Shown here: in pieces, positions 28,823 to 41,727 of the stretch | Layout: each line of letters begins with the position of its first letter | Numbering within the stretch: position 1 is the first letter of the stretch | Assembly (NCBI RefSeq): GCF_056746865.1 | Contig: NZ_CM163382.1 | DNA: 64,000 nt | Strand: one strand, 5' to 3' | The notes under the pieces: model-generated | Told to the model about the DNA's origin: nothing | Databases searched by the model: none | The model's input: the letters and a program-made list of their open reading frames with translations, nothing else | Translations under genes and position numbers: made by a program

Positions 28823-30340
28823 TCATCCTTCGTTATGCATTTCGAGATTTTCCACTTCGTTCTGACGTTGCACGGCTTTGGCGTCATCATTACGTAAAGT
28901 ATCAAGGAAATCGAGGTAGCCCTGATCAACATCTTTGGTGACGTAGACGCCGTTGAACACCGAGCATTCAAACTGCTGGATATCCGGGTTTTCAGCGCGA
29001 ACGGCTTCGATCAGATCGTTCAGATCCTGGAAAATCAACCCGTCAGCACCGATGATCTGGCGAATTTCATCTACTTCGCGACCGTGAGCGATCAGTTCCG
29101 TGGCGCTCGGCATATCAATACCATAAACGTTCGGGAAGCGAATTTCCGGTGCCGCAGAAGCGAGATACACTTTCTTCGCTCCGGCTTCGCGTGCCATCTC
29201 GATAATCTGCTCAGAAGTGGTGCCACGGACGATGGAGTCGTCGACCAGCAGGACGTTTTTATCGCGGAACTCGGCGCGGTTGGCGTTCAGTTTACGGCGC
29301 ACGGACTTACGACGCAGCTGCTGACCCGGCATGATGAAGGTACGGCCTACATAGCGGTTTTTAACGAAGCCCTGACGGTACGGTTTGCCCAGAATACGCG
29401 CGATTTCCAGCGCGATATCACAAGAGGTTTCCGGGATCGGGATCACCACGTCGATATCCAGATCTTCCCATTCGCGGGCAATTTTCTCGCCCAGTTTCGT
29501 GCCCATATTCACGCGGGCGCTGTAAACGGAAATTTTGTCGATGAACGAGTCCGGGCGAGCAAAGTATACATACTCAAACAGGCACGGATTGCTGACCGGA
29601 TTGTCAGCACATTGACGGGTAAACAACTGCCCTTCTTCAGTGATGTAAATCGCTTCGCCCGGCGCGACGTCACGCAGGAAATCAAAGCCCAGCGTATCGA
29701 GCGCAACGCTTTCGGAAGCGACCATATATTCTGTGCGGTTCTCGTCAATATCACGTTTTCCCAGTACGAGCGGACGAATCCCGTTTGGATCGCGGAAAGC
29801 AACCATACCATGGCCGATAATCATCGCCACGCAGGCATACGCGCCGCGGATTAAGCGGTTTGTGGCAGCAATGGCAGCGAAAATATTGTCGGCTTCCAGC
29901 GGGTAGTGGCGGAAATTGTCCAGTTCGCTGGCAAAGATATTAAGCAGAATTTCCGAGTCGGAAGTGGTGTTGATGTGGCGGCGTTTTTCTTCAAACAGTT
30001 TTTTACGCAACTCGTGAGCGTTGGTCAGATTGCCGTTGTGGGCAAGCGTAATGCCATACGGGGAGTTAACGTAAAACGGCTGCGCTTCAGAGGCGCTGGA
30101 GCTGCCAGCCGTAGGGTAACGCACATGACCAATGCCCATATTGCCCTGCAAACGCTGCATATGGCGAGCTTCAAATACATCGCTCACCAGCCCGTTCGCT
30201 TTACGCAAACGGAAGCAGTTATTGGCATCTATGGTGATGATGCCGGCGGCATCCTGACCGCGATGCTGAAGCACCGTTAAGGCATCATAAATCGACTGGT
30301 TAACCGGCATAACACCGGCGATACCGACAATACCGCACAT
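28823..30340 (-). CDS. purF: Amidophosphoribosyltransferase
   Basis: 505-aa ORF beginning MCGIVGIAG (N-terminal nucleophile Cys) with a PRTase domain. Confidence 0.97.
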
Positions 30341-30376
30341 ACGTCTTTTTCCTCGTTAAGCCACATCTCAGAGCAC

Positions 30377-30865
30377 TTACGCTCTGGGCAAGAAACTTGA
30401 CGAGCTTTGCAGATAATCAAAAAACCATCTGATGATAAAACTGAACTGCGGGATCAGCTGTGATTTGCTCCAGTCTTCGCTTTTCGACACCCCGGTAAAG
30501 GAGTCGAGAAAGAAGAGAATGGCGGCAACAATCAACACACCGCGCAACGCACCGAAACAGACGCCCAGCACCCGATCGGTGCCTGACAACCCCGTTTTCT
30601 CCACCAACTGGCCTATCACGAAGTTCACGATAGCACCAACGATCAGGGTAGCGATAAACAGTACCGCGATGGCAATCCCATTTCGAACCAGTTCGTCTTC
30701 AAAGCCCGTAAACCAGACTGACAGGTAAGTGTAGTAATGACTGGCAACAAAGAAAGCACAACCCCATGTCACCAGCGATAACGCTTCACGAACAAAGCCG
30801 CGGATCAGGCTAACCAGAGAGGAAAAAGCAATCACCGCGATTATGGCGTAATCAATCCAGACCAT
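30377..30865 (-). CDS. cvpA: Colicin V production membrane protein
   Basis: 162-aa hydrophobic ORF MVWIDYAIIAVIAFSSLVSLIRGF... Confidence 0.93.
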   Translation of the reverse strand: MVWIDYAIIAVIAFSSLVSLIRGFVREALSLVTWGCAFFVASHYYTYLSVWFTGFEDELVRNGIAIAVLFIATLIVGAIVNFVIGQLVEKTGLSGTDRVLGVCFGALRGVLIVAAILFFLDSFTGVSKSEDWSKSQLIPQFSFIIRWFFDYLQSSSSFLPRA

Positions 30866-30921
30866 ATGTGTCCCACGATTTTACGCCCTGTCATCCTGTT
30901 CGGGGCGCATTCTAACAGAAA

Positions 30922-30937
30922 AAGAAAACGTTTGCGT
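30922..30937 (-). promoter_or_regulatory. PurR operator (PUR box) upstream of cvpA-purF
   Basis: Minus-strand sequence ACGCAAACGTTTTCTT matches the PurR box consensus; located 57 nt 5' of cvpA. Confidence 0.7.
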
Positions 30938-30959
30938 AGGGATTTCCTTCCCACGCATC

Positions 30960-30994
30960 AATAAAAATGGCGCTGAAAAAATATTCAACGCCAT
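30960..30994 (-). terminator. Intrinsic terminator downstream of dedD
   Basis: Minus-strand hairpin atggcgttgaatattttttcagcgccat followed by tttttat. Confidence 0.6.
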
Positions 30995-31012
30995 CGACTT
31001 TTTATGCCTTTG

Positions 31013-31112
31013 CGGCATCGGACAATGCGTGTCGGATGCGGCGTGAACGCCTTATTCGACCTACGGTTCTACCCCTGCGCAGGCCTGATAAGACGCGCCA
31101 GCGTCGCATCAG
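31013..31112. repeat. REP/BIME cluster (3' of dedD)
   Basis: Tandem REP units: gtcggatgcggcgtgaacgccttattcgacctac ... aggcctgataagacgcgccagcgtcgcatcaggc. Confidence 0.8.
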
Positions 31113-31123
31113 GCAAGACCGTA

Positions 31124-31786
31124 TTAATTCGGCGTATAGCCCATTACCACGCCACTTAAGCCAGAAAGTTGCTTCAACTCACCCAGCGAACCTTTCAGCT
31201 TATCTTTCGAGGCATCTGGCCCAACCAGAATACGGGTAATTTTACCCTGCACTGGCGTGGATGGCGACGTATAAACCCGATAACCGGCACCGCGCAGCTT
31301 ACCGACAATCTCATTCACTTTATCGGCATTTTTCAGCGCGCCCAGTTGCACAACATAGGCTTTACCCGTTGGCGCTGCTTTTTCTTCCACGACCGGCTTC
31401 GGTTCTGGCTTCGGCGCAGGTGGTGCTTCAACCTTTGGCTTAAGCGGCTCCACCGGTTTCCGCTTCGGTGGGGCGACCGGTGCAGGTTCCGGTTCAAACT
31501 CGGTGTTATTGGCTGCAATAGTGGCCGGATCGAGCGACGGTGCTGCGGCATCACCTGCCCGTACCTCTTCCGCTGCGCCTTCCGGCGGCTGCGTCGGCAA
31601 CGCCTGGGTGGCGGCTGGCATCATATCAGGCTCATCGCGATCGCCCGCTTTTGGCACCAGCGGGATAGCCGCAAACTCATCCTGATAATGTTTTTTCTGC
31701 CCGTCCAGCAGCCCTGGAAGTACAATCACCCCCAGCGCCACCAGCACGATCGTGCCCACTAACCGATTCTGAAACTTACTTGCCAC
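31124..31786 (-). CDS. dedD: Cell-division protein DedD (SPOR domain)
   Basis: ORF ...ASKFQNRLVGTIVLVALGVIVLPG..., one TM helix, Pro/Lys-rich linker and C-terminal SPOR-like domain; I chose the GTG start at 31786 (220 aa) as I recall it; the longest ORF starts at ATG 31804. Confidence 0.85.
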   Translation of the reverse strand: MASKFQNRLVGTIVLVALGVIVLPGLLDGQKKHYQDEFAAIPLVPKAGDRDEPDMMPAATQALPTQPPEGAAEEVRAGDAAAPSLDPATIAANNTEFEPEPAPVAPPKRKPVEPLKPKVEAPPAPKPEPKPVVEEKAAPTGKAYVVQLGALKNADKVNEIVGKLRGAGYRVYTSPSTPVQGKITRILVGPDASKDKLKGSLGELKQLSGLSGVVMGYTPN

Positions 31787-33044
31787 CGCTTCTCCTCGCG
31801 TCAATCACTTCCATGACATGTGCGACCGTGTGGAACGAACCACACACCAGCACGGTATCTTCCGCTTTAGCGTCCGCCATTGCGGCATCCCATGCCTGCG
31901 CCACGCTATCAAATGATTTGCCGTTACCCAAATGCTCAAGCAGTTGTTCTGCCGTGGCACCGCGCGGCCCTTCCAGTGGCGCACAATACCAGTCATCAAC
32001 CACGCTTTTCAACCAGGCCAGAGTTCCGGCAATATCTTTATCATGTAGCATACCGATAACCGCCAGCACGCGCCCGTTTTTCGGTAGCGCTTTCATACGC
32101 CCGGTGAGATATTCCGCCGCATGTGGATTATGCGCGACATCAAAAATAACGCGTGGCGACTCGCTCACAATCTGGAAACGTCCCGGCAAAATTGCGCTGG
32201 CAATCCCGTCGCGAATGGCATTTTCACTGACCTCCAGCCCGCTGGCACGCAGTGCCGCCAGCGCCGTTGCGGCATTCGGTTGCGGGACAAGCGGCAACGG
32301 CAGATTTTCCAGCGTGCCGTGAGCATCGCTAAACGCCCAGTCATGATCGGTGACGGAATAGTTCCACTCAACGCCCCGACGTTGTAACAGTGCACTTTTT
32401 TCCTGCGCCACATCAGCAATGGTAGAAGGCATTTCCGGCTCACCGACAATTGCCGGTTTTTCGCTGCGGAAGATGCCTGCTTTCTCGCGACCAATGCTTT
32501 CGCGATCTGGCCCCAGCCAGTCGGTATGATCCAGCGCAATGCTGGTTACTACCGCAACATCGGCATCGACAATATTGGTTGCGTCCAGACGACCGCCCAG
32601 CCCTACTTCCAGAATCACCACGTCAAGTTGTGCCTGTTTGAACAGCCACAACGCCGACAGCGTACCGTACTCGAAATAGGTCAGGGAAATATCACCGCGT
32701 GCCGATTCAATCTCCGCAAAAGAGGCGGTGTGGGCCGATTCCGGCAATTCCTGCTCCTGCACACGTACGCGCTCGGTATAACGCACCAGATGCGGTGAAC
32801 TGTAGACGCCCACTTTGTACCCTGCCGCCATCAGAATCGACTCCAGCGTACGGCAGGTGGTGCCTTTGCCATTCGTACCCGCAACGGTAAACACAAATGG
32901 CGCTGGTTTCAGAACGCCAAGACGCGCCGCGACCTGGCTCACGCGCTCAAGGCCGAGATCGATAGTTTTACTGTGCAGGTTTTCCAGATAAGAAAGCCAC
33001 GAAGCCAGAGGCGACGCGGCTTGAGGAGTGCGTTTGATAATCAT
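31776..33044 (-). CDS. folC: Bifunctional folylpolyglutamate synthase / dihydrofolate synthase
   Basis: 422-aa ORF with P-loop (GTNGKGT) of the Mur ligase family; its 3' end overlaps the dedD start. Confidence 0.95.
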   Translation of the reverse strand: MIIKRTPQAASPLASWLSYLENLHSKTIDLGLERVSQVAARLGVLKPAPFVFTVAGTNGKGTTCRTLESILMAAGYKVGVYSSPHLVRYTERVRVQEQELPESAHTASFAEIESARGDISLTYFEYGTLSALWLFKQAQLDVVILEVGLGGRLDATNIVDADVAVVTSIALDHTDWLGPDRESIGREKAGIFRSEKPAIVGEPEMPSTIADVAQEKSALLQRRGVEWNYSVTDHDWAFSDAHGTLENLPLPLVPQPNAATALAALRASGLEVSENAIRDGIASAILPGRFQIVSESPRVIFDVAHNPHAAEYLTGRMKALPKNGRVLAVIGMLHDKDIAGTLAWLKSVVDDWYCAPLEGPRGATAEQLLEHLGNGKSFDSVAQAWDAAMADAKAEDTVLVCGSFHTVAHVMEVIDARRSGGK

Positions 33045-40506: not shown

Positions 40507-41727
40507 TTAATCTTTCAGCTTACGCATTACCAGCGTGGCGTTGGTGCCGCCGAAGCCGAAGCTGTTAGACATCACGGTGGTCAGTTCGCGATCGGTCGTT
40601 TCGGTCACGATGTTCAGACCCGCAGCCTGTTCGTCCAGCTCTTCAATGTTGATGCTCGGGGCGATAAAGCCGTGTTCCAGCATCAGCAGAGAGTAGATAG
40701 CTTCCTGTACGCCAGCAGCGCCCAGAGAGTGACCGGTCATTGCTTTGGTTGCAGAAATCGCCGGGCTCTTATCGCCGAACACTTCACGGATAGCCGCCAG
40801 CTCTTTCACGTCGCCAACCGGAGTCGAAGTACCGTGGGAGTTCAGGTAGTCGATTGGGGTATCAACACCGTGCATCGCCATCTTCATGCAACGCACTGCG
40901 CCTTCGCCAGACGGAGCAACCATGTCTGCGCCATCAGACGTTGCGCCGTAGCCAACGATTTCAGCGTAGATATGAGCACCACGTGCCAACGCGTGTTCCA
41001 GTTCTTCGACCACCACCATACCGCCGCCGCCAGCGATAACGAAACCGTCACGGTGAGCGTCATAAGTACGGGAGGCTTTTTCCGGGGTGTCGTTGTATTT
41101 GGTAGACAGCGCGCCCATTGCGTCGAATTCGCAGGCCATTTCCCAGCACAGCTCTTCGCCGCCGCCAGCAAACACGATATCCTGTTTGCCCAGTTGGATC
41201 TGCTCTACTGCGTTACCGATACAGTGCGCGGAAGTCGCACATGCGGAGCTGATGGAGTAGTTAACGCCGTGAATCTTAAACGGCGTGGCGAGGCAGGCAG
41301 AAACGCCGGATGCCATCGCTTTGGTGACCACATACGGGCCTACCGCTTTCAGGCCGCGCGGGCCGCGCATTGCGTCAGCGCCGAACACCTGAAAACGCGG
41401 GGAACCGCCGCCGGAACCTGCAATCAGGCCAACGCGCGGGTTATTCTGGTAAGCTTCCGGGGAGAGGCCAGCATCTGCAATTGCCTGCTCCATAGAAAGG
41501 AATGCATAAATGGATGCGTCGCTCATAAAGCGCACAACTTTGCGGTCAATGAGGCCAGTGGTATCCAGTTTTACGTTGCCCCAGACGTGGCTACGCATGC
41601 CGGAATCCTTCAGCTCCTGAGAGAAAGTGATCCCTGAACGTCCTTCACGCAGAGATGCCAGGACTTCCTGCTGGTTATTACCGATGCTGGAAACAATGCC
41701 CAGGCCAGTAATCACTGCACGTTTCAT
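40507..41727 (-). CDS. fabB: 3-oxoacyl-ACP synthase I (KAS I)
   Basis: 406-aa [25 protein letters not shown]... with active-site Cys context (SSACATSAH) and His/His of the condensing-enzyme triad. Confidence 0.97.

What the first reader, a model, noticed from the sequence alone, without database searches (positions are those of the whole stretch)
30866..31123. Compound cvpA-dedD spacer: dedD terminator, REP cluster and PurR operator in 258 bp
Reading on the minus strand from the dedD stop, there is first a REP/BIME cluster, then a hairpin with a U-tract (30960..30994), then a perfect PUR-box match ACGCAAACGTTTTCTT (30922..30937) about 57 nt before cvpA. This layout insulates the purine-regulated cvpA-purF-ubiX unit from the upstream pdxB-usg-truA-dedA-accD-folC-dedD transcripts.
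Basis: partly seen in the sequence, partly recalled or inferred. Interest (0 to 1): 0.2.

Follow-up and report, generated by a model that had tools for sequence, protein, structure and literature searches.

The report
Known purF operon control region
The 258-base gap between the E. coli genes dedD and cvpA holds a mobile repeat pair, a transcription stop signal and the textbook PurR repressor site on the cvpA-purF-ubiX promoter; all of it is real, and the repressor site and promoter are already published.

Summary
The window is E. coli, and 30866-31123 is the 258-bp dedD/cvpA spacer.

Read on the minus strand it contains:
- one BIME: y REP 31114-31079, 14-nt linker, inverted z REP 31064-31031;
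- a small hairpin;
- a 12-bp hairpin with a U tract (30995-30960, -18 kcal/mol);
- the 16-bp PUR box ACGCAAACGTTTTCTT (30937-30922);
- an extended -10, TGTTAGAAT (30917-30909).

The PUR box is letter for letter the PurR ChIP-chip site published for cvpA-purF-ubiX. It scores 21.7 bits on a leave-one-out matrix; the next independent site in the window scores 13.5. The published K-12 transcription start maps to G30901.

Across 79 Enterobacteriaceae genomes the box is identical in 78. The 130 bp from hairpin to ATG is far more conserved than cvpA third codon positions. The part holding the REPs varies: one, three or four BIME copies among five other E. coli strains compared.

Terminator function and the "insulation" idea remain inferred; the one 3'-end data set I could read lists no end in the spacer. 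Verdict: ordinary, already known, low interest.

The parts
31124..31126 (-). dedD stop codon (TAA); 9 nt (31123-31115) separate it from the first REP
   Evidence: annotation
31079..31114 (-). y-type REP, GCCTGATGCGACGCTGGCGCGTCTTATCAGGCCTGC. Its foot tetranucleotide reads CTGC here and CTAC in K-12
   Evidence: (-21.4 kcal/mol hairpin); sub-threshold Rfam naRNA4 (REP-derived) hit
31065..31078 (-). short 14-nt linker between the two REP feet (GCAGGGGTAGAACC)
   Evidence: BIME definition in PMC3333891
31031..31064 (-). z-type REP in inverse orientation (GTAGGTCGAATAAGGCGTTCACGCCGCATCCGAC as read on the minus strand). Together with the y REP it forms one BIME
   Evidence: the 91-bp unit is repeated 3-4 times in other strains
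30998..31018 (-). small 5-bp hairpin ATGCC-GCAAA-GGCAT followed by AAAAAG; the stem covaries between genera; function unknown
   Evidence: (-7.1 kcal/mol)
30960..30995 (-). intrinsic-terminator-like hairpin (stem 30994-30984 / 30977-30967, 6-nt loop) plus U tract UUUUAUU; the putative dedD terminator
   Evidence: -18 kcal/mol, z -5.6; kept in 73 of 75 genomes; U-G becomes U-A in 9; 91% conserved
30938..30959 (-). conserved upstream promoter region (-58 to -37), including GGGAAGGAAATCCCT; no assigned function
   Evidence: 88% conserved
30922..30937 (-). PurR operator (PUR box) ACGCAAACGTTTTCTT, at -36 to -21 relative to the transcription start
   Evidence: ChIP-chip site with identical sequence; EMSA; 21.7 bits; identical in 78 of 79 genomes; 100% conserved
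30909..30917 (-). extended -10 promoter element TGTTAGAAT (TG at -16/-15, hexamer at -13 to -8). The -35 position is occupied by the operator (ACGCAA, a poor match)
   Evidence: read from the sequence; position fits the TSS; about 100% conserved. The consensus scan missed it because the -35 match is weak
30902..30908 (-). G+C-rich discriminator GCGCCCC between the -10 element and the start
   Evidence: (97% conserved)
30901..30901 (-). cvpA-purF-ubiX transcription start (G), equivalent to NC_000913.2 position 2,428,821
   Evidence: 240 reads, 36-nt leader, flanking sequence identical to the window
30866..30900 (-). remainder of the 36-nt leader, with the Shine-Dalgarno-like GTGGGA at 30876-30871
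   Evidence: 89% conserved
30377..30865 (-). cvpA, first gene of the PurR-controlled operon

Best explanation
The spacer is two functional modules plus one mobile passenger.

**Module 1, the cvpA-purF-ubiX control region (published evidence).** It is a sigma-70 promoter with an extended -10 (TGTTAGAAT) and essentially no -35 match. It starts transcription at G30901. The 16-bp PurR operator lies at -36 to -21, which is where RNA polymerase must contact the -35 and spacer DNA. When hypoxanthine or guanine is abundant, the PurR dimer with its corepressor occupies this site and blocks initiation. When purines are scarce the site is free and the operon is transcribed.

**Module 2, the dedD terminator (inferred).** A 12-bp hairpin followed by UUUUAUU lies 130 nt upstream of the cvpA ATG. 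It most likely ends folC-dedD transcripts, so that expression of cvpA-purF-ubiX depends mainly on its own PurR-controlled promoter.

**Passenger.** One BIME (a y REP and an inverted z REP) sits in the dedD 3' untranslated region between the stop codon and the terminator. This is the usual niche for these repeats. It may stabilise the dedD message but is not a fixed part of the design.
For: **Operator**
- It is sequence-identical to the ChIP-chip PurR site for cvpA-purF-ubiX, which is occupied in the presence of adenine.
- PurR shifts cvpA-purF control-region DNA in vitro.
- It scores 21.7 bits on a leave-one-out matrix and is the best site in the window.
- It is invariant in 78 of 79 Enterobacteriaceae genomes, always 54-59 nt from the ATG.

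**Promoter**
- The published TSS has a 36-nt leader and identical flanking sequence.
- The operator, spacer and -10 are 100% conserved and the discriminator 97%, against 70% for cvpA third codon positions.
- PurR sites generally lie between the -35 and -10 elements and act on initiation.

**Terminator**
- The only terminator-like site the scan found in 30300-31700.
- -18 kcal/mol, z = -5.6.
- The hairpin is kept in 73 of 75 genomes, and the U-G pair becomes U-A in 9.
- The shortest spacers (153 bp) keep the hairpin and promoter and little else.

**BIME as passenger**
- One copy here and in K-12, 3 in H105, 4 in SCU-108 and O157, partly deleted in MEC2025. The downstream 150 bp is invariant in all of them.
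- The 130-bp core is single-copy in 5425 of 5426 E. coli genomes.
- Variable tandem copy number between strains is the published behaviour of BIME-2.
Against: - No 3'-end mapping was found for the hairpin. The Term-seq tables of Adams et al. 2021 list no 3' end in the spacer and none assigned to dedD. Those lists are selective, so this is weak evidence.
- The degree of read-through into cvpA is unmeasured.
- The hairpin is conserved in primary sequence (91%), including its loop. That is more than a terminator strictly needs and hints at an additional constraint.
- ChIP-chip, EMSA and TSS data come from K-12 or EHEC, not from this strain. The 130-bp core differs from K-12 at only one base, and that base is outside the operator and promoter.
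Confidence: 0.88

Rival explanations
1. The hairpin is leaky, so the two units are not insulated. A substantial share of cvpA-purF-ubiX transcripts would start at the accD, folC or internal dedD promoters and read through. This would give a PurR-independent basal level of the operon.
For: No 3' end is listed in the spacer in the Term-seq tables I could read. Upstream promoters on the same strand are mapped for dedD, folC and accD. The U tract is interrupted (UUUUAUU).
Against: The hairpin is strong (-18 kcal/mol, 12 pairs) and conserved across genera. The cvpA TSS is the strongest listed in the neighbourhood, with 240 reads against 31 and 11 for the dedD and folC starts. PurR is reported to repress its IMP-pathway targets strongly.
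Confidence: 0.25
2. The hairpin region is conserved mainly as double-stranded DNA, either as a protein-binding palindrome or as an upstream promoter element for cvpA, and termination is secondary. One concrete candidate is a single ARG-box-like site for ArgR at the hairpin apex.
For: Primary sequence of stem and loop is 91% conserved against 70% for third codon positions. TGAAAAAATATTCA at 30974-30987 matches the ARG-box core TGAATWWWWATTCA with one mismatch, and it is the only site this close in the window.
Against: Any hairpin with an A+T-rich apex is palindromic by construction. ArgR operators normally carry two boxes (from general knowledge) and only one is seen here. The region lies at -94 to -66, beyond the usual UP-element range. 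I found no published ArgR binding at cvpA or dedD. The changes that do occur preserve or improve RNA pairing.
Confidence: 0.07
3. The BIME, not the hairpin, is the functional end of the dedD message. It would act as a 3' stabiliser or pause and termination site, and because it begins 9 nt after the stop codon it would also tune DedD translation. The REPs would then be a selected part of the layout.
For: The first REP stem starts 9 nt after the dedD stop codon. REP hairpins are stable (-21.4 and -13.5 kcal/mol). Other genera also carry palindromic repeats at the same place. From memory, not verified here: REPs protect upstream mRNA from 3' exonucleases, and REPs within 15 nt of a stop codon lower protein output.
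Against: Copy number differs between strains: a partly deleted copy, 1, 3 or 4. The whole segment is absent from genera with 153-bp spacers. It is only 37% conserved. This is the pattern of a mobile passenger.
Confidence: 0.15

Closest known systems
E. coli K-12 purF operator and cvpA promoter (cvpA-purF-ubiX operon; Makaroff and Zalkin 1985, Rolfes and Zalkin 1988, as cited)
   Same: It is the same locus. The 16-bp operator, the -10 element, the start site and the leader are identical, and only one SNP falls in the 130-bp core.
   Different: Nothing functional differs. This strain (118UI-like) has 5 SNPs in the 258-bp spacer, 4 of them in or next to the REPs.
Other PurR operators of the pur regulon (purT, purHD, purL, purMN, and others)
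   Same: A 16-bp imperfect palindrome around a central CG, overlapping the promoter between -35 and -10, and repressing initiation.
   Different: One half-site (GTTTTCTT) departs from the consensus GTTTGCGT at two positions. The site ranks 12th of 28 by matrix score. In purB and purR the site lies inside the coding region and acts as a roadblock. In carAB it lies at -128.5.
BIME-2 (y plus z2 REP pairs with a short linker, tandemly amplified)
   Same: Two REPs in inverse orientation, feet facing each other across a 14-nt linker. The unit is 91 bp and is present 1, 3 or 4 times at this locus in different strains.
   Different: There is only one copy here. I could not type the z REP as z1 or z2 because the consensus figure is not held. 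The y REP foot reads GCAG instead of GTAG in this strain.
Canonical Rho-independent terminators
   Same: A G+C-containing stem, a short loop and a U-rich tail directly after the stem, downstream of a stop codon on the same strand. An A tract lies 5' of the stem.
   Different: It sits 129 nt after the stop codon rather than directly after it, with a BIME in between. Its primary sequence is unusually conserved.

Membership tests
PurR operator (PUR box) | 16-bp imperfect palindrome matching ACGNAAACGTTTGCNT with a central CG | tested here: met
   One mismatch to the ChIP-derived motif. 21.7 bits on a leave-one-out matrix. Top site in the window, with about 0.002 this good expected by chance.
PurR operator (PUR box) | Occupied by PurR in vivo or in vitro | tested here: met
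   Taken from the literature, not measured here. The K-12 ChIP-chip table lists this exact 16-mer for cvpA-purF-ubiX. EMSA was done with the cvpA-purF fragment. Sequence identity to K-12 was shown.
PurR operator (PUR box) | Placed so as to interfere with transcription of a downstream gene (overlapping the promoter, or acting as a roadblock) | tested here: met
   The box spans -36 to -21 relative to the published start at G30901.
PurR operator (PUR box) | Purine-dependent repression of the downstream operon through this site | not testable with these tools
   Cited as established. The expression tables of PMC3159470 are not held.
Sigma-70 promoter, extended -10 class | TGn directly upstream of a -10 hexamer close to TATAAT, with a start 6-8 nt downstream | tested here: met
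   TGTTAGAAT at 30917-30909. The mapped start is 7 nt after the hexamer. The element is invariant across genera.
Rho-independent terminator | Stable G+C-containing stem-loop immediately followed by a U-rich tract, on the strand of the upstream gene | tested here: met
   12 pairs, 5 of them G-C, 6-nt loop, -18 kcal/mol, tail UUUUAUU.
Rho-independent terminator | RNA 3' ends in vivo at the U tract | tested here: inconclusive
   No 3' end in the spacer in the Adams 2021 tables. Other data sets are not held.
REP / BIME | 30-40-nt imperfect palindrome with the conserved GTAG tetranucleotide at its foot | tested here: met
   Both REPs match the REP pattern with 1-2 mismatches; the window has 7 such matches against 0.25 expected. 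Both form imperfect hairpins. The z REP has GTAG. The y REP has GCAG here and GTAG in K-12.
REP / BIME | [quoted passage not shown] | tested here: met
   31114-31079 and 31064-31031 lie on opposite strands with a 14-nt linker.
BIME-2 subtype | y plus z2 composition, short S linker, tandem copies whose number varies between strains | tested here: inconclusive
   The short linker and the 1, 3 or 4-copy polymorphism are met. Typing as z1 or z2 was not possible without the consensus sequences.

The most novel reading that the evidence does not exclude
The dedD terminator hairpin carries a second, DNA-level function. This would explain why its primary sequence, loop included, is nearly invariant across Enterobacteriaceae. 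One possibility is a single ARG-box-like palindrome, or another upstream site, that links cvpA-purF transcription to a signal other than purines. Another is a bidirectional terminator that also stops antisense transcription out of the promoter region.
Probability: 0.08. Interest if true: 0.3.

Novelty: already known. Interest (0 to 1): 0.07.

Why it matters
It matters little as a discovery. The purF operator is the archetypal PurR site, used for footprinting, for the PurR-DNA crystal structures cited, and for ChIP. REP/BIME elements and intrinsic terminators are textbook features.

The check is still useful in three ways:
- The first-stage reader can locate and correctly name regulatory elements from raw sequence.
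- The spacer now has a base-accurate map.
- The comparative data show a clean split between a nearly invariant 130-bp terminator-promoter-operator core and a hypervariable repeat-landing zone directly after the dedD stop codon.

Tried and rejected
- **Rfam scan of 30000-32000.** Only sub-threshold naRNA4 hits, which are REP-derived. No RNA family.
- **Sigma-54 promoter.** An RpoN gSELEX peak is published in this spacer, but no TGGCAC-N5-TTGCW match with up to 3 mismatches lies in 30866-31123. The argT sigma-54 site at 27977-27962 was found as a control. The peak stays unexplained; REP-related binding or array resolution are possible causes.
- **Upstream mini-ORF in the leader (ATG at 30895).** The ATG is ACG in Citrobacter, Salmonella and Klebsiella, so it is not conserved. 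Rejected.
- **Predicted hairpin GCGCCCC...GGGCGT (30909-30881).** Its 5' arm lies upstream of the mapped start. It cannot form in the cvpA mRNA. Rejected as a leader structure.
- **Generic promoter scan.** It missed the real promoter because the -35 match is poor, and reported only a site inside dedD.
- **ArgR binding.** No mention of cvpA or dedD in accessible ArgR ChIP papers, and the supplements are not held.
- **3'-end and operon data sets.** Conway 2014, Dar and Sorek 2018 and Ju 2019 are either not held or held without supplements.
- **Original papers.** He 1990 and Fath 1989 are not held. The REP-translation paper of Liang, Rudd and Deutscher could not be found.

Full report
**Identity of the region.** The window matches E. 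coli strain 118UI at 100% over 30700-31300, and 5425 of 5426 complete E. coli genomes hold a match. In that strain and in K-12 MG1655 the flanking genes are annotated dedD (cell division protein) and cvpA (colicin V production protein). cvpA is followed by purF and ubiX and preceded by folC, accD, dedA, truA, usg and pdxB, all on the minus strand. The dedD stop codon is at 31126-31124 and the cvpA ATG at 30865-30863. The K-12 spacer is also 258 bp and differs at 5 positions.

**Anatomy on the minus strand, with coordinates checked by script.**
- A 9-nt gap follows the stop codon.
- A y-type REP lies at 31114-31079.
- A 14-nt linker follows at 31078-31065.
- A z-type REP in inverse orientation lies at 31064-31031.
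- A small hairpin ATGCC-GCAAA-GGCAT lies at 31018-31004, followed by AAAAAG.
- A 12-pair hairpin (30995-30966) with the tail UUUUAUU extends to 30960.
- A conserved stretch runs to 30938.
- The PUR box ACGCAAACGTTTTCTT lies at 30937-30922.
- TGTTAGAAT lies at 30917-30909.
- GCGCCCC lies at 30908-30902.
- A 36-nt leader starts at G30901.

The two REPs are supported by inverted-repeat detection. They also match a REP pattern that occurs 7 times in the window against 0.25 expected, fold into stable imperfect hairpins and give sub-threshold hits to the REP-derived Rfam family naRNA4. Two REPs in inverse orientation with a linker define a BIME (PMC3333891).

**The PUR box.**
- I built a weight matrix from the 27 other PurR ChIP-chip sites of Cho et al. 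2011 (PMC3159470, Table 1) and scanned both strands of the window.
- The site scores 21.7 bits and ranks first of about 128,000 positions. The next independent site scores 13.5 bits, and about 0.002 sites this good are expected by chance.
- The same table lists, for the transcription unit cvpA-purF-ubiX, the motif AAGAAAACGTTTGCGT. This is the reverse complement of the 16-mer here. PurR occupancy was seen in the presence of adenine.
- PurR also gel-shifts cvpA-purF regulatory-region DNA amplified from an EHEC strain (PMC5829826). The 'purF operator' is the DNA named in the titles of the PurR crystal-structure papers.
- Against the ChIP motif ACGNAAACGTTTGCNT there is one mismatch, so 'perfect' is slightly generous. 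The site is nevertheless the operator itself.

**Promoter and start site.**
- The supplementary TSS table of Kim et al. 2012 (PMC3415461) gives a cvpA start at NC_000913.2 position 2,428,821 on the minus strand. It has 240 reads and a 36-nt leader, and the upstream sequence is GGAAGGAAATCCCTACGCAAACGTTTTCTTTTTCTGTTAGAATGCGCCCCG.
- With the offset fixed by the ChIP motif coordinates, this start is G30901 in the window.
- The operator therefore spans -36 to -21. TAGAAT is the -10 hexamer at -13 to -8. The TG at -16/-15 makes it an extended -10 promoter, which explains how it works with a poor -35 (ACGCAA, part of the operator).
- The generic promoter scan missed it for that reason.
- PurR bound here would exclude RNA polymerase. 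This is the general rule stated for PurR sites.

**Comparative evidence.** A search with CvpA in one genome per species returned 80 Enterobacteriaceae loci.
- The 16-mer is identical in 78 of the 79 loci with upstream sequence. The other has one substitution that keeps the score. It is always 54-59 nt from the ATG.
- Spacer length ranges from 153 to 804 bp.
- Conservation relative to the window sequence in 75 aligned loci:

| Segment | Conserved |
|---|---|
| PUR box | 100% |
| Operator-to-(-10) spacer | 100% |
| -10 hexamer | 99.6% |
| Discriminator | 97% |
| Terminator hairpin | 91% |
| Leader | 89% |
| cvpA third codon positions | 70% |
| Segment upstream of the hairpin | 37% |

- The hairpin is kept in 73 of 75 loci, and its single U-G pair becomes U-A in nine.
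- Within E. coli the 130-bp core (30866-30995) is single-copy in 5425 of 5426 genomes and at least 99% identical in 5128.
- The BIME varies between strains. There is one 91-bp unit here and in K-12, three in H105, four in SCU-108 and an O157:H7 strain, and a 23-bp internal deletion in MEC2025. This is the published behaviour of BIME-2.
- Other genera carry different palindromic repeats at the same place. The zone between the dedD stop codon and the terminator is therefore a landing site for such repeats, not a conserved part of the design.

**What is shown and what is inferred.**
- Shown, by published experiments on identical sequence: PurR binding, the start site and the operon structure.
- Shown here: exact coordinates, statistical strength of the site, deep conservation, and BIME polymorphism.
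- Inferred: that the hairpin terminates folC-dedD transcripts and so insulates the purine-controlled unit. The form, energy (-18 kcal/mol, z = -5.6), position and conservation all fit.
- Weak counter-evidence: the one 3'-end data set I could read (Adams et al. 2021) lists no 3' end in the spacer or assigned to dedD. That list is selective, so this counts for little.
- Upstream genes have their own mapped starts: accD 159 reads, folC 11, and an internal dedD start 31. Some read-through is possible, and I give that rival 0.25.

**Loose ends.**
- The hairpin's primary sequence is more conserved than a terminator needs to be. Its apex matches the ARG-box core with one mismatch. It is a single box, any A+T-rich hairpin apex is palindromic, and no ArgR data were found.
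- An RpoN gSELEX peak is published for this spacer, but I found no sigma-54 consensus there.
- An in vitro run-off array reported an opposite-strand signal from this intergenic probe. REP cross-hybridisation is a plausible cause.
- The G+C-rich discriminator suggests stringent control; this is untested.

**Verdict.** The system is already known and the interest is low.

Noticed in passing
window 31031-31114; loci L003, L004, L005, L006: The 91-bp BIME unit is polymorphic in copy number at this locus. There is one copy here and in K-12, three in strain H105, four in SCU-108 and an O157:H7 strain, and a copy with a 23-bp internal deletion in MEC2025. The downstream 150 bp is invariant in all of them.
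   Followed up: yes
window 31079-31082: The foot tetranucleotide of the y REP reads CTGC (GCAG on the other strand) in this strain, against CTAC (GTAG) in K-12. GTAG is reported to be required for binding and cleavage by the REP-associated transposase, so this copy may be inert.
   Followed up: partly
window 30998-31018: A small hairpin ATGCC/GGCAT followed by an A tract lies just 5' of the terminator. At the same place other genera have TGCC/GGCA, CGCC/GGCG, GACGTC/GACGTC or GGCC/GGCC, which looks like a covarying stem. It is absent from genera with 153-bp spacers. Function unknown.
   Followed up: partly
window 30974-30987 (+): The terminator apex TGAAAAAATATTCA matches the ARG-box core TGAATWWWWATTCA with one mismatch, the only site this close in the window. 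It is a single box, and no ArgR binding data were found.
   Followed up: partly
window 30902-30908: The G+C-rich discriminator GCGCCCC between the -10 element and the start is 97% conserved across genera. Such discriminators are typical of promoters inhibited by ppGpp/DksA. Not tested.
   Followed up: no
window about 31152 (NC_000913.2 position 2,429,072): A published RpoN (sigma-54) genomic SELEX peak is assigned to the cvpA/dedD spacer at 31-32% intensity. No sigma-54 consensus with up to 3 mismatches lies in 30866-31123. The known argT site at 27977-27962 was recovered as a control.
   Followed up: yes
window 30866-31123 (+): An in vitro run-off microarray study lists the probe for this intergenic region, opposite strand to cvpA, among the differentially transcribed regions when sigma-S and sigma-70 holoenzymes are compared. 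Cross-hybridisation of REP RNA is a likely cause.
   Followed up: no
window about 30708 and about 30396: Published Term-seq lists RNA 3' ends inside cvpA at NC_000913.3 positions 2430606 and 2430294. The first, 157 nt into the gene, is scored as not Rho-dependent. A weak TSS (3 reads) assigned to purF lies nearby at about 30726.
   Followed up: no
window 41310-41325 (-): ACCAAAGCGATGGCAT is the weak PurR ChIP-chip site listed for fabB-mnmC. It scores 13.1 bits and was one of the sites used to build the matrix.
   Followed up: partly
window 31115-31126: The first REP stem starts only 9 nt after the dedD stop codon. From memory (Liang, Rudd and Deutscher 2015; the paper could not be retrieved), REPs within 15 nt of a stop codon reduce protein output through ribosome stalling.
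   Followed up: no
loci L012-L086, upstream of position 1370: Other genera carry their own repeats between the dedD stop codon and the terminator. Citrobacter has REP-like palindromes (GCCGGATAAGGTG...CCGCCATCCGGC) and Enterobacter has G-rich GGGTGAGGGGGAG-type repeats. Trabulsiella and Yokenella have none and a 153-bp spacer.
   Followed up: partly
window 31787-31804: The mechanical ORF list starts dedD at a TTG (31804, 226 aa). RefSeq annotates 220 aa from the GTG at 31786, overlapping the end of folC.
   Followed up: no
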